Below are positions 19,848 through 35,277 of a stretch of DNA of 64,000 nt, one piece after another. Below the pieces are notes generated by a model. It saw only the letters and a list, made by a program, of their open reading frames with translations. It was not told the origin of the DNA and made no database searches. Every line of letters begins with the position of its first letter. Within the stretch, counting starts at the first letter, position 1. The DNA comes from Candidatus Harrisonbacteria bacterium CG10_big_fil_rev_8_21_14_0_10_40_38 (GTDB taxonomy: Bacteria > Patescibacteriota > Minisyncoccia > UBA6257 > 1-14-0-10-40-38): the NCBI GenBank assembly GCA_002773535.1, contig PFAZ01000001.1, positions 19,226-83,225 on the forward strand. The letters are read 5' to 3'. The position numbers and the translations under genes were made by a program.

Positions 19848-19996
19848 GGCTATTGCCAAATACACCTGAATAGTTTTATTATAATCTTATAAAAAATACA
19901 GGAAAATCAGTCAATACCCGGCAACCTATTGACATAAAAATATATAAATTGTACACTTATTACAAATATAAATTACCGCAAAAAACGGCAAAATAT

Positions 19997-21055
19997 ATGG
20001 CAACATCAAAACAAAATTCAAATATAGCTTCATTTGTAAACAGCTTTATTGCCGACCTCGACGAAAGACAGCGCGAGGTTATTAAACTTAGATACGGTCT
20101 TGGCGGAAAAGAAGCCCAGACTCTTCAGGCGATAGGAAATAAATACAGCATCACAAGAGAAAGAGTTCGTCAGATCGAATCAATGGCTCTCGGAGCTCTC
20201 CGAAAAAAACTCGATGATGCATATGCAAAAAATTTCATCCAGACAGCCGTTAATCGCCTCAAGCTCGCAGGCAACGTTGAAAAAGAAAATCTCTTTTTTG
20301 CAGAACTAAAGAAAGAACTCGGCGACACAAGCGCAGATGAACCTTTCACAAATTCAGCAAGATTTATTCTTGAACTCTCAGGAAAACTCGGAACGCACAG
20401 ATACAACCACGATCTCGACTGGCACCCACATTGGCACATCACAACCGATGACAAAAAGCGTGCTCACGGGTTTATTTCCAAACTCATTTCAGCTCTAGAT
20501 TCAGAAAAAGAAGAAGTTCTCTCAAAAGACAAGTTTGACGAAGTTTTCAAAGCAGTTGCCAAAGCTTCAAACATTTCCGAGTCAGTTGCTAGAAACTTCA
20601 TCTCAATTTCAAAAAATTTCGGCACCAACGCTTTTGATAAATTCGGTCTCATGAAGTGGCCCGAAATAAATCCAAAGACAGCTCGCGATTGGGCATATCT
20701 CATATTAAAGAGAGAAAATAAACCCCTTCACTTTACTGATCTTGCAAAGACAATCGCAAAATTCAGAAAAGAAAAAAGAGTAAACGTCCAAACAGTTCAC
20801 AACGAGCTTATTAAGGACAATCGCTTTGTCCTCGTAGGACGCGGTCTATATGGCCTTCGCGAACAAGGTCTTATCCCTGGTACAGCGCTTGAGATTATTA
20901 AACACACTCTTACCGAAAATGGCCCGATGCACACCCATGAGGTTGTAGCGACTGTAAAGAAACAGCGCCTCATCAAAGAAGGCACAATCCTTATAAACCT
21001 ACAAAACAAAAAGCATTTCAAATCTCTTCCCGATGGAAGATTCACCCTCTGCTAA
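19997..21055 (+). CDS. Sigma-70 region-4-like HTH domain protein with long C-terminal winged-helix-like region (CPR-typical); the ORF track gives an alternative start at 19949
   Basis: LDERQREVIKLRYGLGGKEAQTLQAIGNKYSITRERVRQIESMALGALRKKL resembles sigma factor region 4. Confidence 0.5.
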   Translation: MATSKQNSNIASFVNSFIADLDERQREVIKLRYGLGGKEAQTLQAIGNKYSITRERVRQIESMALGALRKKLDDAYAKNFIQTAVNRLKLAGNVEKENLFFAELKKELGDTSADEPFTNSARFILELSGKLGTHRYNHDLDWHPHWHITTDDKKRAHGFISKLISALDSEKEEVLSKDKFDEVFKAVAKASNISESVARNFISISKNFGTNAFDKFGLMKWPEINPKTARDWAYLILKRENKPLHFTDLAKTIAKFRKEKRVNVQTVHNELIKDNRFVLVGRGLYGLREQGLIPGTALEIIKHTLTENGPMHTHEVVATVKKQRLIKEGTILINLQNKKHFKSLPDGRFTLC

Positions 21056-21138
21056 ACAAAAAAAGTTCAGCATGTGATAAAATAAAGCCGTGGTTTCAAA
21101 ATTTATGAAAGCACGGCTTTATTCTAAATAAGAAAAAT

Positions 21139-22380
21139 ATGCAACCAGGAGTTTGGGAATCTATTAAAGAAGTTTTTTCAGCAATTTGGTGGCTGATAGT
21201 ACCTCTAGCCCTCGGTTTTTTTCTTTGGGAACAGTGGCTTAGTTACATAAAAAGAAAATTTGTTATTGAGACAAAGCAGGTTCTTTTGGAAATAAAAATT
21301 CCCCGCGAAGTTCAAAAAACCCCAAAAGCCATGGAGCAGGTTTTTTCTGCTTTCAGAGCAATGTACTCATTCGGATTTAACTGGAAGCAAAAATACATAA
21401 AAGGCGAAGTTGAGCTTTGGCTCTCGCTTGAAATGGTTGGTACCGCGCAGGGCATATTTTTCTATATCCGCACACCAGAGAGTCATAGAAATCTGATCGA
21501 GTCTGCCATCTTTGCTCAATATCCGGAAGTAGAAATCCAAAAAGTTGATGACTACGTAGAAGAGATAGGTATGACGCTCCCAAATGAAGCTTTTGACTTA
21601 TGGGGTGCAGAGTTTACTCTTGCGAGAGACAATCCATACCCGATAAAAACCTATCCGATGTTCGAGGAAAAAATCGAAGAAGCTCAACTTGACCCGCTGT
21701 CGCAGATTATGGAAGTTATGTCCCGTCTTCAGGGAGGTGAAAGGATTATGATCCAAATTCTCGTAAAGCCTATTGGTGATGAACTCGCCAAAGAAGGCGA
21801 AAAACTCCGCGACAAGATTGCAGATAGAAAAAAACCCATTCCCGATCCATCAACAGCCCCTATCGGAAATTTTTTCAAAGATTTAGCCACAGCTCCATTT
21901 AAACAGCCGGAAGTACAGGAAAAAAAGAAAGAAGAAAGAGGCAATCTTCTTATGCTAACCCCGGGCGAGAGGTCAACCTTGGAAGCGATAGAAAAAAAAT
22001 CAGGAAAACTCGCTTTCGAAACTTTAGTCAGATTTGTCTTTGTAGACGACAGAAAGAGCTTCACCCGCTCGCATATTTCAGCTGTTATGGGCGCCATGCA
22101 TCAGTTCAACACAAACGACCTAAATTCATTCAAGCCAAATAAAGATACGCTAACAGCTATTCGCAAAGGTTTTTTCAAAGACCAGCGAACTTATTTAAGA
22201 AAAAGAAAACTTTGGGACAAATTTAAATTTAGAAGATTTTCTCCAAAAGGTTCGTATTTAAACACCGAAGAACTTGCCACTATATTTCACATACCATCAT
22301 TTGCAGTCAAAGCTCCGCTTCTTAGACATGTTCCATCCAAAAAGGGCGAACCACCAGCAGGCCTCCCAATAGAGGAGTAG
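21139..22380 (+). CDS. Membrane-anchored hypothetical protein (413 aa), partner of the downstream VirD4/TraD-like ATPase
   Basis: One N-terminal TM helix (WWLIVPLALGFFLW) followed by a large soluble domain with no recognised motif. Confidence 0.5.
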   Translation: MQPGVWESIKEVFSAIWWLIVPLALGFFLWEQWLSYIKRKFVIETKQVLLEIKIPREVQKTPKAMEQVFSAFRAMYSFGFNWKQKYIKGEVELWLSLEMVGTAQGIFFYIRTPESHRNLIESAIFAQYPEVEIQKVDDYVEEIGMTLPNEAFDLWGAEFTLARDNPYPIKTYPMFEEKIEEAQLDPLSQIMEVMSRLQGGERIMIQILVKPIGDELAKEGEKLRDKIADRKKPIPDPSTAPIGNFFKDLATAPFKQPEVQEKKKEERGNLLMLTPGERSTLEAIEKKSGKLAFETLVRFVFVDDRKSFTRSHISAVMGAMHQFNTNDLNSFKPNKDTLTAIRKGFFKDQRTYLRKRKLWDKFKFRRFSPKGSYLNTEELATIFHIPSFAVKAPLLRHVPSKKGEPPAGLPIEE

Positions 22381-22402
22381 CGTTAAGCGCAAGAACCATG
22401 TC

Positions 22403-22437
22403 CATAATTCATAATTCATACTTCATAATTCATATAT
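22403..22437 (+). repeat. CATAATT-family heptamer tandem array abutting the start codon of 22436..23986
   Basis: The units are cataatt cataatt catactt cataatt catat(ATG). Confidence 0.7.
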
Positions 22438-23986
22438 GAGCGACATCAACTTTTTCGGAAGCACAACTTTCCGAAACCAACAGAAAAAATTTGGCATAAA
22501 AAAAGACGATCGCCGTCGTCACATGTATGTGATAGGAAAAACCGGTGTTGGTAAAACAACGCTTCTCGAAAACATGGCTATTTCAGATATTGTGAACGGA
22601 AACGGGTTGGGCATTATAGATCCTCACGGTGAGTTTGCTGAAAAACTTTTAGAATACATTCCCGAAGAACGCATAGACGATGTCGTTTATTTTGATCCGT
22701 CAGATATAAACTTCCCAATAGCATTCAACCCGTTAGAACAGGTTGATCCTGAGTTTCGCCACCTCGTCGCCTCATCAATCATGGGCGTATTCCAAAAAAT
22801 CTGGATAGACGCATGGTCTGCGAGGATGCAATATATTTTAAATAACACACTCCTAGCCCTTCTCGAAAACCCTGGCACAACACTCCTCTCAATCATGAGG
22901 ATGCTAAATGACAAAAACTATAGAAAGGGTATTGTCGAAAATCTCACCGATCCGGTAGTAAAAAGTTTCTGGGCAAACGAATTTGCAAGATATTCAGAAA
23001 AATTTGAAACCGAAGCCACAGCCGCTATCCAAAACAAAGTCGGTCAGTTCGTCACAAACCCCCTCATCAGAAACATCTTAGGCCAAAAAGTCTCGTCAAT
23101 AGACATGAGAAAGATCATGGATGAAAAAAAGATTTTTATCGTAAACCTCTCAAAGGGAAAGATAGGGGAGGATAACTCGGCCCTTATAGGTTCGATGATT
23201 ATCACAAAGCTCCAACTCGCCGCCATGTCTCGTGTAGATATTCCAGAGAAAGACAGAAACGACTTTTATCTCTACGTAGATGAGTTTCAAAACTTTGCCA
23301 CAGACTCATTTGCAAACATTCTCTCCGAGGCGAGAAAATACCGCCTTTGTCTTGTGCTCGCGCACCAGTACATTCGCCAGCTAACTCACAACGAAAACAC
23401 AAAAGTCAGAGACGCTGTTTTTGGTAACGTGGGAACCATGGTCAGTTTCAGAGTTGGAGCCGATGATGCAGAGTTTTTAGAGCGTGAGTTTCAACCAGAC
23501 TTTCTCGCCACCGATCTTGTAAATCTTGCCAAATATAATGCTTATATAAAACTTATGATAGACGGCATAGCCGCGCGACCATTTTCTGCCGAGTCGCTTC
23601 CGCCAACACCCCTCCCTCCAAAATCATACAAAGAAGACATTATCGAAAATACGAGGCAAAAATACGGCATGGCACGAGAACGTGTAGAAGAAAAAATTAG
23701 AAACGAATGGATGCCATCAGGTGAAAAAGCAGCCGAAGAACTCGTTCAAAGAAGGGGAGAGCAATCCTTAGATAGAGTTTTGAGAAATGCCAAACCTCCG
23801 AAAAAAAATAAACCCGAAAACCAAAACGGATCAAACAGTGAAAACGAAAAACCAAAAGAAAACGAACAAAAGCAAAAAGAAAAAAAAGAAATCAATCTCG
23901 CAGAGTTAAGACAAGCGCTCTCACAGGCCCTAAACGAAAAAAACGTCTCAAAAGAACAAGAACCCGAAGAACCACCGAGTCCATAA
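22436..23986 (+). CDS. P-loop ATPase of the TraD/VirD4 (type IV coupling protein) / FtsK-HerA superfamily
   Basis: Walker A VIGKTGVGKTTLL, Walker B YLYVDEFQNFA, and a LVLAHQYIRQL...FGNVGTMVSFRVG block typical of coupling-protein ATPases; the C-terminus is a Lys/Glu-rich low-complexity tail. Confidence 0.55.
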   Translation: MSDINFFGSTTFRNQQKKFGIKKDDRRRHMYVIGKTGVGKTTLLENMAISDIVNGNGLGIIDPHGEFAEKLLEYIPEERIDDVVYFDPSDINFPIAFNPLEQVDPEFRHLVASSIMGVFQKIWIDAWSARMQYILNNTLLALLENPGTTLLSIMRMLNDKNYRKGIVENLTDPVVKSFWANEFARYSEKFETEATAAIQNKVGQFVTNPLIRNILGQKVSSIDMRKIMDEKKIFIVNLSKGKIGEDNSALIGSMIITKLQLAAMSRVDIPEKDRNDFYLYVDEFQNFATDSFANILSEARKYRLCLVLAHQYIRQLTHNENTKVRDAVFGNVGTMVSFRVGADDAEFLEREFQPDFLATDLVNLAKYNAYIKLMIDGIAARPFSAESLPPTPLPPKSYKEDIIENTRQKYGMARERVEEKIRNEWMPSGEKAAEELVQRRGEQSLDRVLRNAKPPKKNKPENQNGSNSENEKPKENEQKQKEKKEINLAELRQALSQALNEKNVSKEQEPEEPPSP

Positions 23987-26546: not shown

Positions 26547-26580
26547 TCAAATACTTAAATACCCCAAAAAACACGGCAAC

Positions 26581-28728
26581 ATGAAAGTTGCCGTGCTTCC
26601 TTCTAAACTCCAAAAAAACTGGATTTTCCAGCAAAAAGAGGGGATAATAGCAATAAATAAAACTCTTCAAGTTCTCAAATATAGAAATATGAAAAAAATA
26701 CTAGACATCATAAAAGATTCAAATTACAGTTTTTCACTTTTTGATCAAAAACTTATTGATGAGTTGGAGCAGAAAATCACTATTAAAGACGGCAAACCAT
26801 ATGTTGTTTGCGCTATTCGCGACAAAGAAATTGTATTGAAGCCAGAGGAAATAGTGCGCCAGCTATACGCAATGAAATTACTTGGGGAATATGGTTACCC
26901 GAAAACCAGAATTAAATTTGAACACGCAATTCATTTTGGTCGTGAAATAAAATCCGCCGACATTGTTATTTTCGACAAAGACCGCCCGACCGTTGAATAC
27001 ATTATTGTAGAAATAAAAAAGCCAAAACTTCAAGACGGAAAAAATCAACTTCGCTCATATACCAACGCCACCGGCGCGCCGATTGCTGTTTGGACCAATG
27101 GTGGTCAAATTTCTCACTACAACCGCAAAGATCCGAACTATTTTGAAGACATTACCGATATTCCAAAAGCCGACCAAACGCTTGAAGATATTTTGAAAGA
27201 AAGGTTTACTCTCAAAGACTTAATCATCAAAGACAAAATCCCAAATGAGGGGAAATCACTCAAAACCATTATTCAGGATATGGAAGACGAGGTTTTGGCC
27301 GCCGCCGGTGTGGACGTCTTTGAAGAAGTATTTAAACTTATTTTTACCAAACTTTACGATGAATTACAGAGCAAGAAAGATAAAATGCGTCTGGAAATTT
27401 ATCTTGAAGATAAGTTAAGCAAAGAAGATCGCGGAGATTATGACAAGGTAAAAGAAATTTTGGCAAAAATTGATGACAGCAGTTTCAGGGTTCTGGAATT
27501 TAGAAACACCGGACAATCAGAGGGCGAACTTAAAAAGAAAATCCAAAAACTTTTTGACGAAGCCAAAGCCAAATGGCCGGGCGTTTTTGACGAAGCTAGC
27601 CAGATTCTACTTTCTCCATCACATCTTTCTGTTGTAGTTTCCGGTTTTCAAGATATAAAACTTTTTAACTCAAACCTGCAAATTATTGATGAAGCTTTTG
27701 AATATTTAGTTAGTAAGTCAGCTAAAGGTGAAAAAGGCCAATACTTCACCCCTCGCCATGTGATTGATATGTGCGTCAAAATGCTCAATCCAAAAGCTGG
27801 CGAATATATGGTAGATACCGCCGCCGGTTCTTGCGGATTTACCGTTCACACTATTTTTCAAATTACAGGACACCTATTTCAAAACACGGATATTTCCGAA
27901 AAAGAAAAAGAAAATGTGCTAAAAGTTTTTGGCATTGATTTTGACGAAAAAGTCGTGCGCGTGGCTCGCACCTTAAACCTGATTGCCGGAGACGGAAACA
28001 CTAATGTTTTGCACCTCAACAATCTTGATTATGAACGCTGGAATGAATCAATTCAAAATCGCGATTGGCTGGAAGTGTACGGAGCGGGATTAAAACGGCT
28101 TGAAGTTCTGCAAAAAGATAAAAGTTCATACAAAGAATTTAATTTTGATATTCTCATGGCAAACCCGCCATTTGCCGGAGACATCAAGGAATCCCGTATA
28201 ATCCACAAATACGATCTTGGCTACAATGACAAAAACAAGCCAAAATCAAAAGTTGGGCGCGATATTTTGTTTATTGAGAGAAACTTAAATTTTTTGAAGC
28301 CGGGCGGAAGAATGGCAATTGTTTTACCTCAAGGACGTTTTAACAATACATCAGACAAAGCAATTCGCGAGTATATCGCCGAAAAAGGCAGAATTTTGGC
28401 TGTTGTCGGACTCCACGTAAACACTTTCAAACCACACACGGGAACAAAAACCAGCGTACTTTTTGTGCAGAAATGGGACAATAAACTATGCCCGAAAGTG
28501 GAAGACTACCCGATTTTCTTTGCTGTTTCCGAGAAATCCGGCAAAGATAATTCCGGCGAGTATGTGTTTTTGAAAAACGGAGGTGGTCAGTCGAAATTGG
28601 ATAAAAACGGCCATTTAATAATCGAGCACGATCTGCACAACCACGACGGAGAATTGCCCGACGGCGTGGCGGAAAAATTTATTGAATGGGCAAAGTCGGA
28701 AAAATTAAGTTTTTGGAAGCAGTTATGA
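26581..28728 (+). CDS. Fused restriction-modification subunit: N-terminal HsdR_N-type PD-(D/E)xK nuclease domain + gamma-class N6-adenine DNA methyltransferase (BcgI-A / Type IIB-IIG-like); the start may instead be 26689
   Basis: Nuclease motif ...SADIVIFDKDRPTVEYIIVEIKKPK (D...ExK). MTase motifs QYFTPRHVIDMCVKML (X), VDTAAGSCGF (I), MANPPF (IV). Confidence 0.75.
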   Translation: MKVAVLPSKLQKNWIFQQKEGIIAINKTLQVLKYRNMKKILDIIKDSNYSFSLFDQKLIDELEQKITIKDGKPYVVCAIRDKEIVLKPEEIVRQLYAMKLLGEYGYPKTRIKFEHAIHFGREIKSADIVIFDKDRPTVEYIIVEIKKPKLQDGKNQLRSYTNATGAPIAVWTNGGQISHYNRKDPNYFEDITDIPKADQTLEDILKERFTLKDLIIKDKIPNEGKSLKTIIQDMEDEVLAAAGVDVFEEVFKLIFTKLYDELQSKKDKMRLEIYLEDKLSKEDRGDYDKVKEILAKIDDSSFRVLEFRNTGQSEGELKKKIQKLFDEAKAKWPGVFDEASQILLSPSHLSVVVSGFQDIKLFNSNLQIIDEAFEYLVSKSAKGEKGQYFTPRHVIDMCVKMLNPKAGEYMVDTAAGSCGFTVHTIFQITGHLFQNTDISEKEKENVLKVFGIDFDEKVVRVARTLNLIAGDGNTNVLHLNNLDYERWNESIQNRDWLEVYGAGLKRLEVLQKDKSSYKEFNFDILMANPPFAGDIKESRIIHKYDLGYNDKNKPKSKVGRDILFIERNLNFLKPGGRMAIVLPQGRFNNTSDKAIREYIAEKGRILAVVGLHVNTFKPHTGTKTSVLFVQKWDNKLCPKVEDYPIFFAVSEKSGKDNSGEYVFLKNGGGQSKLDKNGHLIIEHDLHNHDGELPDGVAEKFIEWAKSEKLSFWKQL

Positions 28729-28762
28729 AGCACTAAACTATATTAAATACTTTGGATCAAAT

Positions 28763-30649
28763 ATGCTTATTCTACGAAAAATGAAAATCAAAAACTTCCG
28801 CTCGTTCGTTGATGACGAGATTGTTTTTGATGATATTACGGCAATCGTTGGCGCAAACGAAGGAGGTAAAACAAATATTTTAGATGCTATTGAACATATT
28901 ACAAGCGAAAGCCCTTTCAAACACGATGACTTGAGAAAGGGGTCAAAGAATTATCCATACGGAGAAATTGAAATTAACTATACGGTTACTTTAACCGACA
29001 AGGTGATTCCTGAACTCATTGAAGAAGTGCCTCAACTTAATGAAAGAGATTTTCTGATTACCAAGAAAGGAAAATTAGATCATGCGCCCGATTTTTGTTT
29101 CCAACTTATAGATGCTAAAGATTTAGAAAAGATTATTACAATAAAAAAAGTTTCTCAATTCAAGAAAAAGTTTGACGCAGAACAGATTAAAGCATTCGAT
29201 GAAGCGTTGAAAAGAAAATGGTTTGTTAAAAAACCAGTACTCAATCTAACACACTCCCCATTCCCACAGTTGAGGAAAGAAGGTGTGATTGAGGTTATTG
29301 ATAGCGAGCAGAAAATAAACAGCTTCCTTTCTAGTAAGATTATAGAAGAATTAAGGAGTAACACAAACATTTATTTTTGGAAGTATAACAAGGGGGAGTT
29401 TCTAAAAAATATAACACCCATTAATGAGTTTGTTGCAAATCCTAATAACTTTCCTGCTATGAAAAATCTTTTTACCGTTGCGGGCTGGAAGAAAAATGAT
29501 TTTCAGCGATATCTCGTCGATACTAAAATAAATGATGCAGTTGTTGTGATGCGGGAAGTTGAAAATAAAATAAATAAGCTCATTAAAAAAACCTGGAGGC
29601 AGCATCGAGACTTGACAATCTCCATCCAACGCACAGAAAATGATTTGCTTTTGAATCTGCAAGAACTCAATGCCCCCACCCCACCAGAGATTAGGAGCGA
29701 TGGGTTGAAATGGTTTTTGGGTTTCCTAATCAACTTTCGAGCAAGGGCAAAAAATTTGAGCGACTTTACCATTCTTATAGACGAACCAGCTCTACATTTG
29801 CATCCTCGTGGACAAAAGGATGTGTTATCAGAAATTAAGGGTTTAGGAAAGGATAATCAGATTATTTACACTACCCATCAAACTTTTATGTTAGATAGGA
29901 ATCATCCTGAAAGAGTGAGAATCTTAACAAGAGAATCTATAAAAAGCGGCGGGCATGATTATTACTTCGCATCAAGAATAATAGGAGAACCTGAAACCAA
30001 AGATATTATTTCAGACCCGTTATTGAGAGAAGCGTTAGGATTTAACGTTTCCGACATATCGCCGATTAGTGCAAAAAATATTTTAGTCGAGGGAACTTTT
30101 GATAGGGGGTTATTACTTTTGCTCAATAAATATTTTCCTAGTATTGATTTAGAGCAATTTTCCATTATTGCTTGCGATGGAGCATCAGACATAAAAAGAT
30201 TTGCAAACTTCTGCTTGGCAAACGAGTTAAAAATTTTTTGTCTTTATGATAGTGATGAGAGTGGTAAGATATGCCACGACAATACTTCCGAAAATGCAGT
30301 GCCGACAAACCTAAAAACTCATTTTAAACTACTGCATAATGATTTTTTGGCTTTAGAAACACCAGAGGATTTATTCTCGCTGGAGCTTTTCAGAAATGCA
30401 ACGAGGGATGTTACTGAATTAAAGGATTTTGCGCCAACGAGTTCCTCTCCCAAGATGCAACAACTAAAGACATTTCTTGATTCAAAAAAAATCAGTAGGG
30501 ACGAAAAAAACGAGATAAAGCATAAACTTGAAGATGCTCTTTTGAAAAAGTTAGGAGAAGAATTAAATAATCAAAAAATATCTACTGGCGATAGTTTAGT
30601 AAAACTCCTAGTTTCTTTAGCAGAGGAATTAAAGAAGAGAAAGATTTAG
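28763..30649 (+). CDS. OLD-family ATP-dependent nuclease (ABC-type ATPase + C-terminal TOPRIM), Gabija-GajA / PARIS-like
   Basis: IKNFRSF...ITAIVGANEGGKTNILDAI (Walker A), ILIDEPALHLHP (Walker B/D-loop), IIYTTHQ (H-loop); TOPRIM NILVEGTFDRGLL and LYDSDESG (DxD). Confidence 0.75.
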   Translation: MLILRKMKIKNFRSFVDDEIVFDDITAIVGANEGGKTNILDAIEHITSESPFKHDDLRKGSKNYPYGEIEINYTVTLTDKVIPELIEEVPQLNERDFLITKKGKLDHAPDFCFQLIDAKDLEKIITIKKVSQFKKKFDAEQIKAFDEALKRKWFVKKPVLNLTHSPFPQLRKEGVIEVIDSEQKINSFLSSKIIEELRSNTNIYFWKYNKGEFLKNITPINEFVANPNNFPAMKNLFTVAGWKKNDFQRYLVDTKINDAVVVMREVENKINKLIKKTWRQHRDLTISIQRTENDLLLNLQELNAPTPPEIRSDGLKWFLGFLINFRARAKNLSDFTILIDEPALHLHPRGQKDVLSEIKGLGKDNQIIYTTHQTFMLDRNHPERVRILTRESIKSGGHDYYFASRIIGEPETKDIISDPLLREALGFNVSDISPISAKNILVEGTFDRGLLLLLNKYFPSIDLEQFSIIACDGASDIKRFANFCLANELKIFCLYDSDESGKICHDNTSENAVPTNLKTHFKLLHNDFLALETPEDLFSLELFRNATRDVTELKDFAPTSSSPKMQQLKTFLDSKKISRDEKNEIKHKLEDALLKKLGEELNNQKISTGDSLVKLLVSLAEELKKRKI

Positions 30650-30679
30650 AATAAATCAAGAGGAAAAATAAAAATAACT

Positions 30680-32098
30680 ATGCAATATTCAGTTGTAAAT
30701 CACAAAATGGTAAAAGAAAATTCTGATTTTAGGATTGATGGCGAATTTTACCATCCCGTAATTTTAAATCGGCTAGATTTACTCAATCACAAAAGAAATG
30801 GGCAATTGAAGAACTTGGTAAAATTTGTAGTTGGCCCTTTTGGTTCAACAGTTACAGTTGATAAATATGTTGAAGAGTCAAATTTTAGGTACATCAGAAA
30901 CAAAGATATAAATGATTTTGTGATTGGAGAAACTGATCCAGCTTTAATCCCTGAAGAAGTGTACCATTCGCTAAAACAATTTCACATTCAACAAGACGAC
31001 CTCTTACTAACAGTAGTTGGTACACTTGGAAAAGTCGCGATAGCACAGGAAAAAGACATACACTCTATTTTCAGTTGCAAAAGTACGCTTTTGCGGTCAC
31101 AGGGATTAAATCCTTACTATTTACTAACATACTTAAATTCTGCAACAGGACGACTTTTTTCATTACGAGGGAAACGAGGCGCAATTCAAGAGGGACTCAA
31201 TTTATCAGATCTAAAAGATATTAAGGTTTTCATTCCATCAGAGGATTTTCAAAATAAAATAGCAGAACTAGTGCAAAAATCTTTTTCAATAATTAATAAT
31301 TCAAAATCCCTCTACTCTCAAGCCGAGCAATTACTCCTTTCCGAACTCGGACTTTTAGACTGGAAGCCAAAACATGCACTTTCTTTTGTAAAAAACTTTT
31401 CCGCAACGCTTGAAGCCAATCGTTTTGACGCAGAGTATTTTCAGCCGAAATACGAGGAAATTGTTGAAGCGGTAAGAAAATACAAAGGCGGATTTGATGA
31501 ACTGAGTAATTTGGTGAAAATTAAAAAAAGCGTTGAGCCGGGAAGTGAAGCATACCAAGAAAACGGAATCCCTTTTGTCCGTGTGAGTAATCTTTCAAAA
31601 TTTGAGCTTTCCGACAACAACCAGCAATTTATATCCGAGGAATTATACAACGAACTAAAAACACATCAGCCAAAGAAAGGTGAAATTTTGCTTTCAAAGG
31701 ACGCAACGCCCGGCAGGGCATATTATTTGAACGAAGAATCACAAAAAATGATAGTTTCCGGCGGAATTTTGAGGTTAAAAATGGATAACAAACAGATATT
31801 GCCGGAGTATTTGACGCTTGTTTTAAATTCCGTAATTGTGCAAAGGCAAATTGAGCGCGACGCTGGCGGATCAATCATTAACCATTGGAGACCTGACCAA
31901 GTAAAAACAACGCTCATTCCAATTTTGAAAGAAAATAAACAAAAAGAAATCAAAGAATTAATTGAAAAATCATTTAACGACAGGAAGTTATCCAAATCTC
32001 TGCTTGACATCGCCAAGCGAGGCGTGGAAATGGCAATAGAAAAAGACGAACAGGAAGCGGAACGGTGGATTAATAGCGAAACCAAAACACTAAACTAA
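30680..32098 (+). CDS. hsdS: Restriction-modification specificity subunit (HsdS-like, two TRDs)
   Basis: Two repeated halves with conserved blocks DLLLTVVGTLGKVAI / GEILLSKDATPGRAY and GAIQEGLNLSDLKDIKVFIPS / GGSIINHWRPDQVKTTLIPIL, plus central and C-terminal coiled coils. Confidence 0.8.
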   Translation: MQYSVVNHKMVKENSDFRIDGEFYHPVILNRLDLLNHKRNGQLKNLVKFVVGPFGSTVTVDKYVEESNFRYIRNKDINDFVIGETDPALIPEEVYHSLKQFHIQQDDLLLTVVGTLGKVAIAQEKDIHSIFSCKSTLLRSQGLNPYYLLTYLNSATGRLFSLRGKRGAIQEGLNLSDLKDIKVFIPSEDFQNKIAELVQKSFSIINNSKSLYSQAEQLLLSELGLLDWKPKHALSFVKNFSATLEANRFDAEYFQPKYEEIVEAVRKYKGGFDELSNLVKIKKSVEPGSEAYQENGIPFVRVSNLSKFELSDNNQQFISEELYNELKTHQPKKGEILLSKDATPGRAYYLNEESQKMIVSGGILRLKMDNKQILPEYLTLVLNSVIVQRQIERDAGGSIINHWRPDQVKTTLIPILKENKQKEIKELIEKSFNDRKLSKSLLDIAKRGVEMAIEKDEQEAERWINSETKTLN

Positions 32099-32112: not shown

Positions 32113-32862
32113 ATGTCCGAATACTATAACCCAAACAGAGACTCCTCATGGAATTACGGAGGAAAAAATTGGAAACTAAGTCGCTCTAAGATCGACCTGT
32201 TTTTAGAGTGTCCGCGATGTTTCTATATAGACAATAAGCTCGGCGTAAAGCGAGTACCCGGATTTCCTTTTTCTATCAACAGCGCAGTGGACTACCTCCT
32301 TAAACAAGAGTTTGATGCGTATCGAGTAAAAAATGAGCAACACCCGCTTCAAAAAGAGTACGGTATAGATGCCAGACCAATGTCTCACGATGAGCTTGAT
32401 GAATGGAGGAGAAATTTCGGTGGTATTAGGTATCTACATGAACCGACTGGGCTTTTAGTAACCGGAGCGATTGATGACTTGTGGATCAATAAAAAAGACG
32501 AACATATTGTCGTTGACTACAAAGCAACAGCAAAAGACGAAGCAGTAAAAGCGCTAGATAAAGAATGGCAAGATGGCTACAAACGACAAATGGAAGTCTA
32601 TCAGTGGCTCTTGCGACAAAATGGACTCAAAGTTTCTGATATTGGATATTTTGTTTACTGCACCGGAAAAATGGATCGCCAAGCTTTTGATAAAAAAATC
32701 GAGTTCGACGTGAATCTGATCGAATACAAAGGAAATGACTCATGGGTAGAAAAAACATTATTTGAAATAAAGAAATGTTTAGATGGTAGCGAAATACCGC
32801 AATCAGAAAAATCTTGCGATCATTGCGCGTATTGGAACTCCCGAAAAAAATTTGAGAAATAA
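32113..32862 (+). CDS. Cas4/RecB-like PD-(D/E)xK nuclease with N- and C-terminal CxxC pairs (putative Fe-S)
   Basis: Motifs GAIDDLW, HIVVDYKATAK, RQMEVYQWL (QxxxY); Cys residues at CPRC and CDHC. Confidence 0.6.
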   Translation: MSEYYNPNRDSSWNYGGKNWKLSRSKIDLFLECPRCFYIDNKLGVKRVPGFPFSINSAVDYLLKQEFDAYRVKNEQHPLQKEYGIDARPMSHDELDEWRRNFGGIRYLHEPTGLLVTGAIDDLWINKKDEHIVVDYKATAKDEAVKALDKEWQDGYKRQMEVYQWLLRQNGLKVSDIGYFVYCTGKMDRQAFDKKIEFDVNLIEYKGNDSWVEKTLFEIKKCLDGSEIPQSEKSCDHCAYWNSRKKFEK

Positions 32863-32864
32863 AC

Positions 32865-33362
32865 ATGCCAATCTTTTATATCATTAGTATTACTATAATC
32901 ATCGTGATAGCAATCTCAGTTGTTCGTAGAGGTTTTACCAGCGTTGAAGAAAAAGCCAAATATCATTATAACCACAAAAATTTCTTTCTTACGCGATCAG
33001 AGCATGAATGTTACGACGCCCTTGTTGAGGCAGTTGGTATGGAGTACCGCATTTTCGCGCAAGTGCATTTACCTACCATAGTTGACCACGCGGTTCGAGG
33101 GCAGAATTGGCGTGCTGCTCTTGCTCATATAAATCGAAAGTCGGTTGATTTTGTACTCTGCGACAAAGCATATCTCTCACCAAAACTCGCTATCGAGTTA
33201 GACGATAAATCACATGAACGACCAGATCGGCAAGAACGAGACCGCGAAGTGGAGCGTATTCTGCGTGAAGCAGGCGTACCACTCTTGAGACTGAAAAATT
33301 ATGAAAGCTCTAATTCAATCGAATTAGCTCAAAAAATCAAAAAAATATTAAACACAAAATAA
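32865..33362 (+). CDS. DUF2726-like (NERD/PD-(D/E)xK-like) domain protein with N-terminal TM anchor
   Basis: TM helix IISITIIIVIAISVV; SEHECYDALVEAVG...RIFAQVHL...SVDFVLCDKAYLSPKLAIELDDKSH pattern. Confidence 0.5.
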   Translation: MPIFYIISITIIIVIAISVVRRGFTSVEEKAKYHYNHKNFFLTRSEHECYDALVEAVGMEYRIFAQVHLPTIVDHAVRGQNWRAALAHINRKSVDFVLCDKAYLSPKLAIELDDKSHERPDRQERDREVERILREAGVPLLRLKNYESSNSIELAQKIKKILNTK

Positions 33363-33392: not shown

Positions 33393-34067
33393 ATGACCGA
33401 AACAATTTTTATTATTTCACTAGTCATTATATCGGCATTAGCCGTAGCGACGTTTGTGATAACTCTCCGAACTAGAAAAGAGACAGAAAAAATTAAATTT
33501 CATAACAGCGAAACAAACGATGCGCTTGCAAAGCTTAGCCATCAACATAAACAGCTATATACAGAAATCCTAACCGAAGTAAAAAAATACAAAGAGGACA
33601 ACAATGACATTTGGGATCGTGAAATCGATGACAGATACGAAGAAGCAAAAAAATTGATTTATGAAGCAAACAGAGTGTCAGCATCTTTCCTTCAGCGAAA
33701 ACTTAAAATCGGTTATGCACACGCTGCAAAATTATTAGATAAATTAGAAGAAGATAATCTGATAGGCCCAGGTGACGGAGCAAAGCCAAGAGAAGTTTTT
33801 ATTTCTGAAGATGATTTAGAAGAAAAACCACCAAAGGAAAGCCCATACGCTGAAGACGACGACCTATATCTACAAGTCAGAAAATTTGCAATCGAAACCG
33901 GAAAAATAAGCGCACCAAAACTGCAACGCCAATTTAAAATCGGCTACGCACGAGCCGCGTGCCTATTGGATCTACTAGAAGAGAGGGGAATTATCGAATC
34001 AACAAACAAAAAAGGGATGAAAAAAGTCCTAGTAACAGAAGACGGAATAAGAGAAACTGAAGAATAA
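33393..34067 (+). CDS. Membrane-anchored protein with two tandem FtsK-gamma (KOPS-binding winged-helix) domains and no translocase motor
   Basis: N-terminal TM helix, a coiled coil, then RVSASFLQRKLKIGYAHAAKLLDKLEEDNLIGPGDGAKPREV and KISAPKLQRQFKIGYARAACLLDLLEERGIIES, each matching the FtsK gamma consensus (LQRxLRIGYNRAARLIDxLEExGIV...KPREV). Confidence 0.65.
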   Translation: MTETIFIISLVIISALAVATFVITLRTRKETEKIKFHNSETNDALAKLSHQHKQLYTEILTEVKKYKEDNNDIWDREIDDRYEEAKKLIYEANRVSASFLQRKLKIGYAHAAKLLDKLEEDNLIGPGDGAKPREVFISEDDLEEKPPKESPYAEDDDLYLQVRKFAIETGKISAPKLQRQFKIGYARAACLLDLLEERGIIESTNKKGMKKVLVTEDGIRETEE

Positions 34068-34466
34068 ATGCCCAAAACAAAAAACATCCTCATACTCGAA
34101 GACGATATTGAAACACTAAGCAAGCTTCTTGAGGAAATCTCAAAACTCGAAGAAGAGATATATCCAGACGATATAGATGTAACTGTGCTTTCAAATTATA
34201 AATCGGTAGAGAAATGGATAAACAAAGAGGAGTCAGAAAAATACGACATAATTCTTTTAGATCGCGATTGTAAAATGGGTGGGTCATTTCATATTCTAGA
34301 TATAGAAAAATTTGGTCCAGATAAAATCATTTCTATTTCCTCAACCCCGCAATGGAACGAAGAAGCAAAAAAGAGAGGCATAAAAACAATCGTTTGGAAA
34401 AATTATGAAAATCTCGACGCATTCGCAAAGGATGTTGGGATAACAATCCGAGAAAATTTTCTATAA
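34068..34466 (+). CDS. Stand-alone receiver (REC/CheY-like) domain protein (divergent)
   Basis: ILILEDDIETL..., a phospho-acceptor-like DIILLDRDCKMGG, and a KTIVWKN end; its start overlaps the stop of the upstream gene. Confidence 0.4.
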   Translation: MPKTKNILILEDDIETLSKLLEEISKLEEEIYPDDIDVTVLSNYKSVEKWINKEESEKYDIILLDRDCKMGGSFHILDIEKFGPDKIISISSTPQWNEEAKKRGIKTIVWKNYENLDAFAKDVGITIRENFL

Positions 34467-34473
34467 AACCAAC

Positions 34474-34499
34474 CACTTCCCAAACTCCTAAAAAACCAG
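34474..34499 (+). repeat. 26-bp perfect direct repeat (second copy at 35568..35593) flanking the zeta-toxin cassette
   Basis: cacttcccaaactcctaaaaaaccag is identical at both sites. Adjacent roughly 30-bp blocks (34502..34530 and 35470..35500) are about 70% similar. Confidence 0.8.
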
Positions 34500-34563
34500 C
34501 CGTCGACTTCAGAGCTCTTGAGTAATCGGTATTACTCCAATCGTTTTTTGCTAAAATAGGATT

Positions 34564-35277
34564 ATGACCGATGAAGAAATTCGCGTTCAAGCAATTGAAT
34601 ATGCTAAACGAAATAAGGTTTCCATAGCCAAAAAGCTAACTGATCGCACAAAGTATATGCCGGATATTGTTCCTATTTCAGTTTTTATGGCCGGCTCGCC
34701 GGGTGCAGGCAAAACAGAGTTTTCAAAAAGTTTGATCAGTATTTTAGAAGCAGGCGAAGAGCGTCGCGTAGTACGCATTGACGGGGACGAAGTGCGACTA
34801 CTTATTCCCGACTACACCGGCAATAATTCATATCTTTTTCAGGGAGCAATTTCGCTTGTGGTAGAAAAAATGCATGATTTAGTTTTGCACAACAAACAAA
34901 GTTTTGTACTAGATAGTACGTTCTCAAACTACACTAAAGCCACGGATAATATTCGGCGTTCTTTGGGGAAAAGCAGACCAGTTTTTATTTTTTATATCTA
35001 TCAAAAACCAGAGGTCGCTTGGAACTTCACTCAAGCGAGAGAGAAAGTAGAGGGTAGAAATATTCCGAAATCAGCATTTCTTGATCAGTTTTTTGGCGCT
35101 AGAGAAACAGTGGATAAAATTTCCAGCGAGTTTAGTGATAAAGTAGTAATATTTTTAGTTAAAAAAGATTTTGAGAAAAATTCTGTTGAAAATATAGTTA
35201 AAATCGGACCAGAAAGTAATATTGACGAACATATAACAGAACTCTATACTAAAGATGAACTAGAAAAACGTTTATGA
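34564..35277 (+). CDS. Zeta-toxin / AAA_33 family P-loop kinase
   Basis: Walker A VFMAGSPGAGKTEFSK, an RIDGDEVR segment, and zeta-toxin-like length (237 aa). Confidence 0.6.
   Translation: MTDEEIRVQAIEYAKRNKVSIAKKLTDRTKYMPDIVPISVFMAGSPGAGKTEFSKSLISILEAGEERRVVRIDGDEVRLLIPDYTGNNSYLFQGAISLVVEKMHDLVLHNKQSFVLDSTFSNYTKATDNIRRSLGKSRPVFIFYIYQKPEVAWNFTQAREKVEGRNIPKSAFLDQFFGARETVDKISSEFSDKVVIFLVKKDFEKNSVENIVKIGPESNIDEHITELYTKDELEKRL

What the first reader, a model, noticed from the sequence alone, without database searches (positions are those of the whole stretch)
26581..32098. BcgI-like R-M system (nuclease-MTase fusion + HsdS) split by an OLD-family nuclease, with no HsdR helicase
The 715-aa protein fuses an HsdR_N-type PD-(D/E)xK nuclease domain (D...ExK: ADIVIF...VEIKK) to a gamma-class N6A methyltransferase with motifs X, I and NPPF. 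A two-TRD HsdS lies 2 kb downstream. Nowhere in the window is there a helicase/translocase HsdR. That is the Type IIB (BcgI A/B) logic rather than Type I. Between the RM and S genes sits a complete OLD-family ATPase-TOPRIM gene (Walker A/B, H-loop, TOPRIM E and DxD), a Gabija-GajA/PARIS-like effector, with no UvrD-like partner. An R-M system carrying a nested OLD nuclease as a single + strand operon (gaps 14-34 nt) is an unusual composite defense locus.
Basis: partly seen in the sequence, partly recalled or inferred. Interest (0 to 1): 0.8.

Follow-up and report, generated by a model that had tools for sequence, protein, structure and literature searches.

The report
Restriction system with embedded OLD nuclease
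A small-genome (CPR) bacterium carries a helicase-free, BsaXI/BcgI-like restriction-modification pair with a complete OLD-family ATPase-nuclease gene inserted between its two genes, which is a real example of the already described habit of defence genes nesting inside restriction operons.

Summary
Three intact + strand genes encode a nuclease-methyltransferase fusion (likely start 26689, not 26581), an OLD-family ABC-ATPase/TOPRIM protein and a two-TRD specificity subunit. No helicase or translocase gene lies anywhere in the 64 kb.

The Type IIB reading is supported. The closest solved structure by far is the RM subunit of BsaXI, across both the nuclease and methyltransferase parts. All four BsaXI catalytic nuclease residues are conserved. 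Close relatives are RM+S pairs 3 nt apart, or single-chain R-M-S fusions, never with HsdR.

OLD is a secondary insertion. It has lower GC, is absent from 93%-identical RM-S cassettes, and other relatives carry RhuM-Fic or an unknown gene at the same junction.

The same OLD clade sits beside or inside at least six other kinds of R-M system, including Type III Mod-OLD-Res with overlapping codons.

Nesting of ABC-ATPase/TOPRIM modules in modification-based defence loci is already published (Payne 2024; BREX survey 2026; PrrC and PARIS as "guardians"). This is therefore a new member of a known kind.

Most likely the locus gives two layers of defence: ATP-independent restriction, plus a co-expressed OLD backup. 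Whether OLD is functionally coupled to restriction is not shown.

The parts
26572..26595 (+). Terminator-like hairpin (9-bp stem, 6 G-C pairs) after the upstream 259-aa gene. It marks the upstream boundary of the unit.
26689..28728 (+). RM gene, 679 aa from M37 (the longest ORF starts at 26581). It fuses an N-terminal PD-(D/E)xK endonuclease to a gamma-class N6-adenine methyltransferase, like the BsaXI/BcgI RM subunit.
26842..27165 (+). HSDR_N_2 nuclease domain. Its E78, D91, E108 and K110 (679-aa numbering) align to BsaXI catalytic residues E73, D90, E105 and K107.
27682..28503 (+). N6_Mtase/Eco57I-type methyltransferase domain, with motif I (DTAAGSCGF) upstream of motif IV (NPPF).
28725..28740 (+). 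Junction scar. An ATG overlaps the RM stop (TTATGA) at the position where S starts in relatives. It is followed by CACTAAACTA, which is identical to the 3' end of the S gene.
28763..30649 (+). Embedded OLD-family gene (628 aa). The N-terminal ABC ATPase with inserted helical domain covers about aa 1-400. The C-terminal TOPRIM nuclease runs from about aa 435 to the end. GC is 0.352, against 0.390 for RM.
30680..32098 (+). Specificity (S) subunit, 472 aa, with two TRDs. Its C-terminal half is more than 90% identical to the S of 93%-identical RM cassettes. TRD1 is divergent and has low GC (0.338).
32088..32097 (+). Second and only other copy in the window of the 10-mer CACTAAACTA, at the last codons and stop of S.

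Best explanation
The locus is a two-gene, translocase-free restriction-modification system of the Type IIB kind. An RM fusion protein and an S subunit most likely assemble as (RM)2S, as in BsaXI. The complex would recognise a bipartite site, methylate adenine with SAM, and cut unmethylated DNA with its N-terminal PD-(D/E)xK domain without using ATP.

A complete Class-1-like OLD gene (ABC-ATPase sensor plus TOPRIM nuclease) has been inserted at the RM|S junction. It is probably co-transcribed with the R-M genes. I take it to be a self-contained second-line, probably abortive, defence. It shares expression and mobility with the R-M cassette rather than being a subunit of it.

Shown: the domain content, conserved catalytic residues, absence of a helicase, the secondary nature of the insertion, and the recurrent adjacency of this OLD clade to R-M genes.

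Inferred: the stoichiometry, cleavage on both sides of the site, co-transcription, the OLD trigger, and the OLD substrate (DNA or tRNA).
For: RM module:
- Pfam, PADLOC and NCBIfam give HSDR_N_2 + N6_Mtase. The nearest named families are MAD2 and MAD5, both below cut-off.
- A family profile against the PDB gives RM.BsaXI at E 7e-61 across the nuclease and MTase parts, against HsdM at 1e-26 or weaker.
- Even a poor AF2 model puts the three BsaXI entries first, aligned over about 720 columns.
- BsaXI catalytic residues E73/D90/E105/K107 (PMC11997821) correspond to E78/D91/E108/K110. D91 is invariant and the other three are at least 90% conserved across 31-70% identical homologues.
- Relatives are RM+S 3 nt apart with no HsdR within 10 kb, or single-chain R-M-S fusions of 1100-1200 aa.
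- The window holds no helicase.

OLD:
- The best PDB sequence and fold match is Class 1 Ts OLD, 6P74.
- The AF2 model is confident (pLDDT 86.7).
- All ATPase and TOPRIM motifs are invariant in 33 homologues.

Insertion:
- OLD is absent from 93%-identical cassettes.
- GC is 0.352 against 0.390 for RM.
- Relatives carry RhuM-Fic or a 233-aa gene at the same junction.
- The junction holds a remnant-like ATG plus the 10-mer.

OLD with R-M elsewhere:
- After an HsdR-like gene plus an M-S fusion (70% identity).
- After Type III Mod-Res (69%).
- Between Type III Mod and Res, with overlaps of 4 and 14 nt.
- After RM-S (L027).
- After Dam MTase plus a 390-aa gene, after an Eco57I-type MTase, and after a Sau3AI/MutH-like gene.
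- R-M reference hits occupy 11 of 63 adjacent gene positions, 3 of 54 at distance 2, and 0 of 334 further away.
Against: - No biochemical or methylome data exist. Cleavage on both sides of the site is assumed from homology.
- The RM structural model is of low confidence in the MTase part.
- A trans-acting HsdR elsewhere in the genome cannot be excluded.
- The closest named sequence families are MAD2 and MAD5 of the eight-gene MADS system, so the RM+S module can work inside larger systems.
- About two thirds of OLD-clade members are not next to R-M genes. The junction also hosts unrelated genes. This argues that OLD is autonomous, but autonomy is not proven.
- The tight recurrent embedding, such as Mod-OLD-Res with overlapping codons, could instead reflect functional coupling.
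Confidence: 0.65

Rival explanations
1. OLD is a dedicated 'guardian' of the R-M system, in the manner of PrrC or PARIS. It would be held inactive, and fire its TOPRIM nuclease when restriction is inhibited by a phage anti-restriction protein, or when restriction produces DNA ends. On this reading the nesting reflects functional coupling.
For: - The same OLD clade is found directly adjacent to or inside R-M operons of at least six kinds, on the same strand, with gaps from -14 to +11 nt.
- It is strongly enriched at the adjacent position.
- A 98%-identical OLD sits next to two unrelated MTase modules.
- There are precedents. PrrC is embedded in EcoprrI, PARIS senses Ocr, and OLD-ABC/TOPRIM modules are proposed as backup effectors in BREX.
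- P2 Old responds to aberrant DNA structures.
Against: - Roughly two thirds of clade members have no R-M neighbour.
- Partner R-M types differ so much (IIB, I-like, III, II, IIG) that a specific protein-protein contact is unlikely.
- The RM|S junction also accepts unrelated cargo, namely RhuM-Fic and a 233-aa gene.
- Known Class 1 OLDs (P2 Old, Vc OLD, YbjD) act alone.
Confidence: 0.22
2. The locus is a Type I system whose HsdR is encoded elsewhere. The N-terminal domain of the fusion would be an HsdR-derived relic, and the cassette would mainly methylate.
For: Sources and PADLOC label the family 'Type I M protein / MTase_I'. The S subunit is of the Type I kind. The rest of the genome was not available.
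Against: - No HsdR lies within 26 kb upstream or 32 kb downstream, nor within 8-10 kb in relatives from other phyla.
- The nuclease catalytic tetrad is conserved across the family.
- Single-chain R-M-S sister proteins exist.
- BsaXI is a much closer match than any HsdM.
Confidence: 0.05
3. The locus is a reduced MADS-like system. MAD2-like MTase, an ATPase(-nuclease) and MAD5-like S would act together, with OLD standing in for MAD3/MAD4 as the effector directed by methylation status.
For: - NCBIfam gives MADS2 at 292 bits and MADS5 at 167 bits over their full lengths.
- PADLOC gives mad2, mad3, mad5 and mad8 hits.
- In MADS, an ATPase gene (mad3) and mad4 also lie between the MTase and S genes. 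mad5 cannot be deleted unless mad2 or mad3 is also deleted.
Against: - All scores are far below the NCBIfam cut-offs (720, 400, 420).
- The OLD match to MADS3 is only the P-loop (24 bits), and no MADS4 hit was found.
- The mandatory MAD6-8 are absent. The 'mad8' hit is a VirD4/HerA-like ATPase 2.6 kb upstream, beyond efp on the other strand.
- RM+S relatives occur without any ATPase.
Confidence: 0.05

Closest known systems
BsaXI / BcgI (Type IIB R-M, RM + S subunits)
   Same: - N-terminal PD-(D/E)xK endonuclease fused to a gamma-class N6A MTase.
- A separate Type I-like S subunit with two TRDs.
- No translocase.
- The catalytic E...D...ExK residues align.
- BsaXI is the best PDB match by sequence profile and by fold.
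   Different: - Only about 17% identity to BsaXI RM.
- The protein is 679 aa against 916 aa, so there is no room for BsaXI's extra 'paddle' elaboration.
- The recognition site and cleavage pattern are unknown.
- An OLD gene separates RM from S.
MADS MAD2/MAD5 (methylation-associated defence system, P. aeruginosa)
   Same: These are the closest named sequence families for RM and S, aligned over their full lengths. In MADS, an ATPase gene also lies between the MTase and S genes.
   Different: - Scores are well below the equivalog cut-offs.
- MAD6-8 are absent.
- OLD is not MAD3 or MAD4.
Class 1 OLD nucleases (Thermus scotoductus OLD 6P74, P2 Old, Vibrio cholerae OLD)
   Same: - Single polypeptide with an ABC ATPase carrying an inserted dimerisation region, followed by a TOPRIM domain.
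- All catalytic motifs are present.
- No UvrD-like, RT or split partner.
- Ts OLD is the top sequence and fold match.
   Different: - About 15% identity, and roughly 100 aa longer than Ts OLD.
- Reviews describe Class 1 as solitary genes away from other defence genes. This clade is often nested in R-M operons.
Embedded defence genes: PrrC in EcoprrI, TgvAB in the VPI-2 Type I R-M, HEC-04 (ABC ATPase-TOPRIM) in Hma, OLD-ABC/TOPRIM modules in BREX
   Same: A self-contained defence gene sits between the core genes of a modification-based system, on the same strand. The ABC-ATPase plus TOPRIM chemistry matches HEC-04 and the BREX backup modules.
   Different: - The host system here is a Type IIB-like RM+S pair in a CPR bacterium, which is not among the host types surveyed (Hma, BREX, DISARM, Type I).
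- By PADLOC the protein is closer to P2-type Old than to the HEC models that scored (HEC-01A).
- No activity has been tested.

Membership tests
Type IIB R-M (BcgI/BsaXI-like, RM + S) | RM subunit with an N-terminal PD-(D/E)xK endonuclease carrying the conserved E...D...ExK catalytic residues | tested here: met
   HSDR_N_2 at E 5.6e-26. E78/D91/E108/K110 align to BsaXI E73/D90/E105/K107 and are invariant or at least 90% conserved.
Type IIB R-M (BcgI/BsaXI-like, RM + S) | Gamma-class N6-adenine MTase fused in the same chain | tested here: met
   N6_Mtase at E 7e-34 and Eco57I at 3e-11. Motif I lies before NPPF.
Type IIB R-M (BcgI/BsaXI-like, RM + S) | Separate S subunit with the TRD1-CR1-TRD2-CR2 layout | tested here: met
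   Methylase_S in two stretches. Specificity_I matches over its full length at 1e-42, and MADS5 over 1-461/461.
Type IIB R-M (BcgI/BsaXI-like, RM + S) | No ATP-dependent translocase (HsdR/Res) | tested here: met
   None in the 64-kb window, and none next to relatives. The rest of the genome was not searched.
Type IIB R-M (BcgI/BsaXI-like, RM + S) | Cuts both strands on both sides of a bipartite site at fixed distances, needing only Mg2+ and SAM | not testable with these tools
   Needs enzyme assays.
Type I R-M | HsdR subunit with an SF2 helicase motor | tested here: not met
   No such gene in the window or near relatives.
MADS | MAD6, MAD7 and MAD8 present (mandatory in the authors' model), and MAD2/MAD5 above the family cut-offs | tested here: not met
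   MADS2 scores 292 against 720, and MADS5 scores 167 against 400. No MADS4, 6, 7 or 8 hits were found. There is only a generic PADLOC mad8 hit to a VirD4-like ATPase upstream.
OLD family nucleases | N-terminal ABC ATPase with Walker A, Walker B and H-loop | tested here: met
   G30-x4-G35-K36, D340-E341 and H372 are invariant in 33 homologues. AAA_15 scores 8e-21.
OLD family nucleases | C-terminal TOPRIM with a catalytic Glu, DxD and a second acidic pair | tested here: met
   E443-G444, D496-S-D498, E535-D536 and K586. OLD-like_TOPRIM scores 2.4e-8. The fold matches Ts OLD, GajA and Eco8.
Class 1 OLD | No UvrD/GajB partner, no RT/ncRNA and not split, i.e. a single gene | tested here: met
   The neighbours are RM and S only. 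Ts OLD is the top match.
Class 1 OLD | Solitary, not proximal to other defence genes (as described in reviews) | tested here: not met
   It is nested in an R-M operon here, and in about a third of clade members.
Gabija (Class 2 OLD) | Adjacent GajB UvrD-like helicase | tested here: not met
   No helicase in the window.
PARIS (AriA/AriB) | Separate ABC ATPase and TOPRIM (DUF4435) proteins | tested here: not met
   The window protein is a single fused 628-aa polypeptide. The AriA hit covers the ATPase part only.
Genetically embedded defence genes (Payne et al. 2024) | Located between core genes of a host defence system, on the same strand, and not a mobility or housekeeping gene | tested here: met
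   OLD lies between RM and S with gaps of 34 and 30 nt. RM and S are 3 nt apart in relatives.

The most novel reading that the evidence does not exclude
This OLD clade may be a distinct, R-M-associated class of OLD nuclease. It would be functionally tied to restriction whatever the R-M type. It could sense or process the DNA ends that restriction creates, which would be useful in CPR genomes that may lack RecBCD-type degradation. Alternatively it could fire when restriction is blocked. Nesting between Mod and Res, or between RM and S, would then be selected for co-regulation rather than being hitch-hiking.
Probability: 0.2. Interest if true: 0.65.

Novelty: new member of a known kind. Interest (0 to 1): 0.4.

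Why it matters
The locus adds a clean, intact example from Candidate Phyla Radiation bacteria of layered immunity packed into one operon. The first layer is a translocase-free Type IIB-like R-M. The second is a Class-1-like OLD.

The survey also shows that one OLD clade repeatedly lands inside R-M operons of very different types. This runs against the textbook description of Class 1 OLDs as solitary genes. It also offers natural paired constructs (RM-S with and without OLD, Mod-OLD-Res) for testing whether OLD nucleases cooperate with restriction.

The RM family is 85-95% identical across several CPR phyla. It has many single-chain R-M-S sisters, so it is also a source of candidate Type IIB enzymes with swappable TRDs.

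Tried and rejected
- MADS membership was tested with NCBIfam on the whole proteins, the split halves of OLD, and the upstream genes. It was rejected: scores are below cut-off and there is no MAD4 or MAD6-8.
- HsdR in the window: every ORF of 120 aa or more was listed and the large ones were scanned. None was found.
- Assembly chimera: rejected, because four independent assemblies share the gene order.
- Phage origin of OLD: a scan of viral contigs found no relatives.
- Downstream Cas4-like and DUF2726 genes as part of the system: they are absent from all related RM or OLD loci, so they were treated as separate.
- Structure of RM: the AF2 model was poor outside the nuclease domain (pLDDT 63.7). 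I used it only as weak support.
- Promoter and terminator scans gave counts no higher than shuffled sequence, apart from the hairpin at 26572. Co-transcription therefore remains an inference.
About ten architectures were only checked with phmmer against six R-M references, so the R-M-adjacent fraction is a lower bound.


Full report
**1. What is there**

The window comes from a Candidatus Harrisonbacteria (CPR/Patescibacteria) MAG. The RM and OLD proteins are 100% identical to NCBI entries from that organism.

- RM protein: Pfam gives HSDR_N_2 + N6_Mtase + Eco57I.
- Middle protein: AAA_15/AAA_21 + OLD-like_TOPRIM.
- Third protein: two Methylase_S stretches.
- PADLOC gives MTase_I (944 bits), Old (9e-29) and Specificity_I (1e-42).

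The same gene order occurs in four independent assemblies, so it is not a chimera.

One correction concerns the RM start. All relatives are 677-690 aa and the NCBI model is 679 aa. The ATG at 26581 lies in the loop of a 9-bp terminator-like hairpin that follows the upstream gene. The real start is therefore M37 at 26689.

**2. No translocase**

All ORFs of 120 aa or more were listed. Those outside the locus are housekeeping genes: the hrcA-grpE-dnaK-dnaJ operon, secDF, efp, mnmA, comEC, tuf, the ribosomal protein operon, aaRS genes and ddl/alr. There is also one 1820-aa surface protein. No SF2 helicase gene exists within 26 kb upstream or 32 kb downstream.

**3. The R-M module is Type IIB-like**

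- By single-sequence search, the best solved relative is RM.BsaXI.
- With a profile of 31 diverse family members, BsaXI scores E 7e-61. Two aligned stretches cover the N-terminal nuclease domain and the methyltransferase. Type I HsdM proteins score only 1e-26 to 1e-30, and only on the MTase part.
- The BsaXI paper identifies E73, D90, E105 and K107 as the catalytic residues conserved in all Type IIB enzymes (PMC11997821). In the alignment these correspond to E78, D91, E108 and K110 of the window protein. D91 is invariant and the other three are at least 90% conserved across homologues of 31-70% identity.
- The AF2 model of RM was poor outside the nuclease domain (pLDDT 63.7). Even so, the three BsaXI entries rank first, aligned over about 720 columns. 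I treat that only as weak support.
- Close relatives (93% identity) form compact HTH-RM-S cassettes. RM and S are 3 nt apart, there is no HsdR within 10 kb, and some lie next to a serine recombinase.
- A very large sister group consists of single-chain R-M-S fusions of 1100-1200 aa at 56-69% identity. That is the other classical Type IIB architecture.
- NCBIfam's nearest named families are MAD2 and MAD5 of MADS. Scores are far below cut-off, and the mandatory MAD6-8 are missing.

**4. The middle gene is a complete OLD-family protein**

- Its best PDB match by sequence (E 3e-14) and by fold (E 2.7e-16, using a model with pLDDT 86.7) is the Class 1 OLD of Thermus scotoductus. GajA and retron Eco8 effectors follow.
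- Walker A, Walker B, the H-loop, the TOPRIM Glu, DxD, a second acidic pair and a conserved Lys are invariant in 33 homologues.
- There is no GajB, RT or split partner.

**5. OLD is a secondary insertion at a variable junction**

- It is absent from the 93%-identical cassettes. The S subunit of those cassettes is more than 90% identical to the window's S in its C-terminal half and differs in TRD1.
- OLD (GC 0.352) and TRD1 (0.338) are AT-richer than RM (0.390) and the rest of S (0.386).
- In Peregrinibacteria the same junction holds a RhuM-Fic gene. In another relative it holds a 233-aa unknown gene.
- At the RM stop, the ancestral S start codon seems to persist (TTATGA). It is followed by a 10-mer that occurs only once more in the 64 kb, at the very end of S (expected 0.08 copies). 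This may be the remnant of a deleted S gene, which would imply an earlier RM-S-OLD order such as the one seen in L027. That reading is speculative.

**6. The OLD clade and R-M systems**

Loci from the genome and metagenome scans and from exact-protein look-ups fall into 37 OLD clusters at 90% identity. About a third are directly adjacent to R-M genes, and the R-M systems are of many kinds:
- HsdR-like gene + M-S fusion, then OLD (70% identity).
- Type III Mod-Res-OLD (69%).
- Type III Mod-OLD-Res, with overlaps of 4 and 14 nt, in five divergent clusters.
- RM-S-OLD (L027).
- Dam MTase + 390-aa gene, then OLD.
- Eco57I-type MTase, then OLD.
- Sau3AI/MutH-like gene, then OLD.

A 98%-identical OLD follows two unrelated MTase modules.

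With one fixed detection method, R-M hits fill 11 of 63 adjacent gene positions, 3 of 54 at distance 2, and 0 of 334 further away. The references came from three of these loci, but seven of the adjacent hits are independent of them. Other clade members sit among housekeeping genes, a toxin-antitoxin pair or a recombinase.

**7. Comparison with the literature**

- Reviews describe Class 1 OLDs as solitary genes that are not near other defence genes (PMC10568477). This clade departs from that description.
- Nesting of defence genes inside modification-based systems is nevertheless established. Examples are PrrC in EcoprrI and PARIS as 'RM guardians' (PMC12707154), TgvAB inside a Type I R-M (PMC11411939), 'guilt-by-embedding' including the validated ABC-ATPase/TOPRIM fusion HEC-04 (bioRxiv 10.1101/2024.01.29.577857), and OLD-ABC/TOPRIM 'backup effectors' in BREX and R-M-like systems (PMC12839542).
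- The effector chemistry of Class 1 OLDs is unsettled. Reported activities are DNA nicking (Vc OLD), exo/endonuclease activity in vitro (Ts OLD) and tRNA cleavage triggered by aberrant DNA (P2 Old preprint).

**8. Verdict**

The 'unusual composite' claim is overstated, because this is a new member of a known kind of arrangement.

The most likely mechanism has two layers: ATP-independent restriction by (RM)2S, plus an autonomous, co-expressed OLD backup (confidence about 0.65). A guardian-type functional coupling remains a live alternative (about 0.2), and it is the more interesting possibility.

Noticed in passing
window 28731-28740 and 32088-32097: The exact 10-mer CACTAAACTA occurs only twice in 64 kb (expected 0.08 copies). 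One copy starts 3 nt after the RM stop. The other covers the last codons of S. Together with an ATG overlapping the RM stop, at the place where S starts in relatives, it looks like the remnant of a deleted S gene or a recombination scar bracketing the OLD-S block.
   Followed up: partly
window 26572-26595: A strong terminator-like hairpin (9 bp, 6 G-C pairs) lies after the 259-aa gene. The longest-ORF start of the RM gene (ATG 26581) is in its loop, so the real start is 26689. Unlike relatives, the window has no small HTH (C-protein-like) gene upstream of RM.
   Followed up: yes
window 32113-33362: Directly downstream of S, with gaps of 14 and 2 nt, lie a Cas4-like PD-(D/E)XK nuclease (249 aa) and a DUF2726/DUF559-type nuclease-like protein (165 aa). 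No related RM or OLD locus carries them. They may be a separate two-gene defence candidate.
   Followed up: partly
window 33393-35277: A protein with two FtsK_gamma winged-helix domains (224 aa), an unknown 132-aa protein and a zeta toxin (237 aa) continue the same-strand array. The 132-aa gene may be the antitoxin. GC3 is low (0.29-0.32), so the whole 26.7-35.3 kb stretch looks like a small defence/TA island between efp and mnmA.
   Followed up: no
window 19949-23986: This stretch holds a sigma70 region 4 + HARE-HTH protein (368 aa, with a partial match to the MzaA sigma factor of the MZA anti-phage system), a 413-aa protein with no family, and a VirD4/HerA-like ATPase (516 aa, with a generic PADLOC mad8 hit). 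They lie between secF and efp. Their function is unclear.
   Followed up: partly
L157-L159 10046-11044; L160 2248-2949: In RM-S cassettes 87-93% identical to the window's, the RM|S junction carries a RhuM+Fic gene (Peregrinibacteria) or a 233-aa unknown gene instead of OLD. The junction is a hotspot for embedded cargo.
   Followed up: yes
L023/L120 3267-10061; also L112, L113, L124, L129, L132: These are Type III R-M operons with an OLD gene between Mod and Res. The start and stop codons overlap by 4 and 14 nt, and the arrangement recurs in several divergent OLD lineages.
   Followed up: partly
L104 590-4627 versus L119 521-3260: OLD genes that are 98% identical are preceded by unrelated modules. 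In L104 the module is a Dam-type MTase plus a 390-aa gene. In L119 it is an Eco57I/N6_Mtase-type 506-aa gene. In L029 and L121-L123 the same OLD is split into 362-aa and 243-aa ORFs, which suggests a probable pseudogene.
   Followed up: yes
P0001-P0120; L001-L003: The RM protein is 85-95% identical across several CPR phyla (Harrison-, Uhr-, Falkow-, Magasanik- and Peregrinibacteria). It also occurs next to a serine recombinase, and inside a prophage-like region (portal and major capsid genes) of a 3.3-Mb genome. This points to recent horizontal spread.
   Followed up: partly
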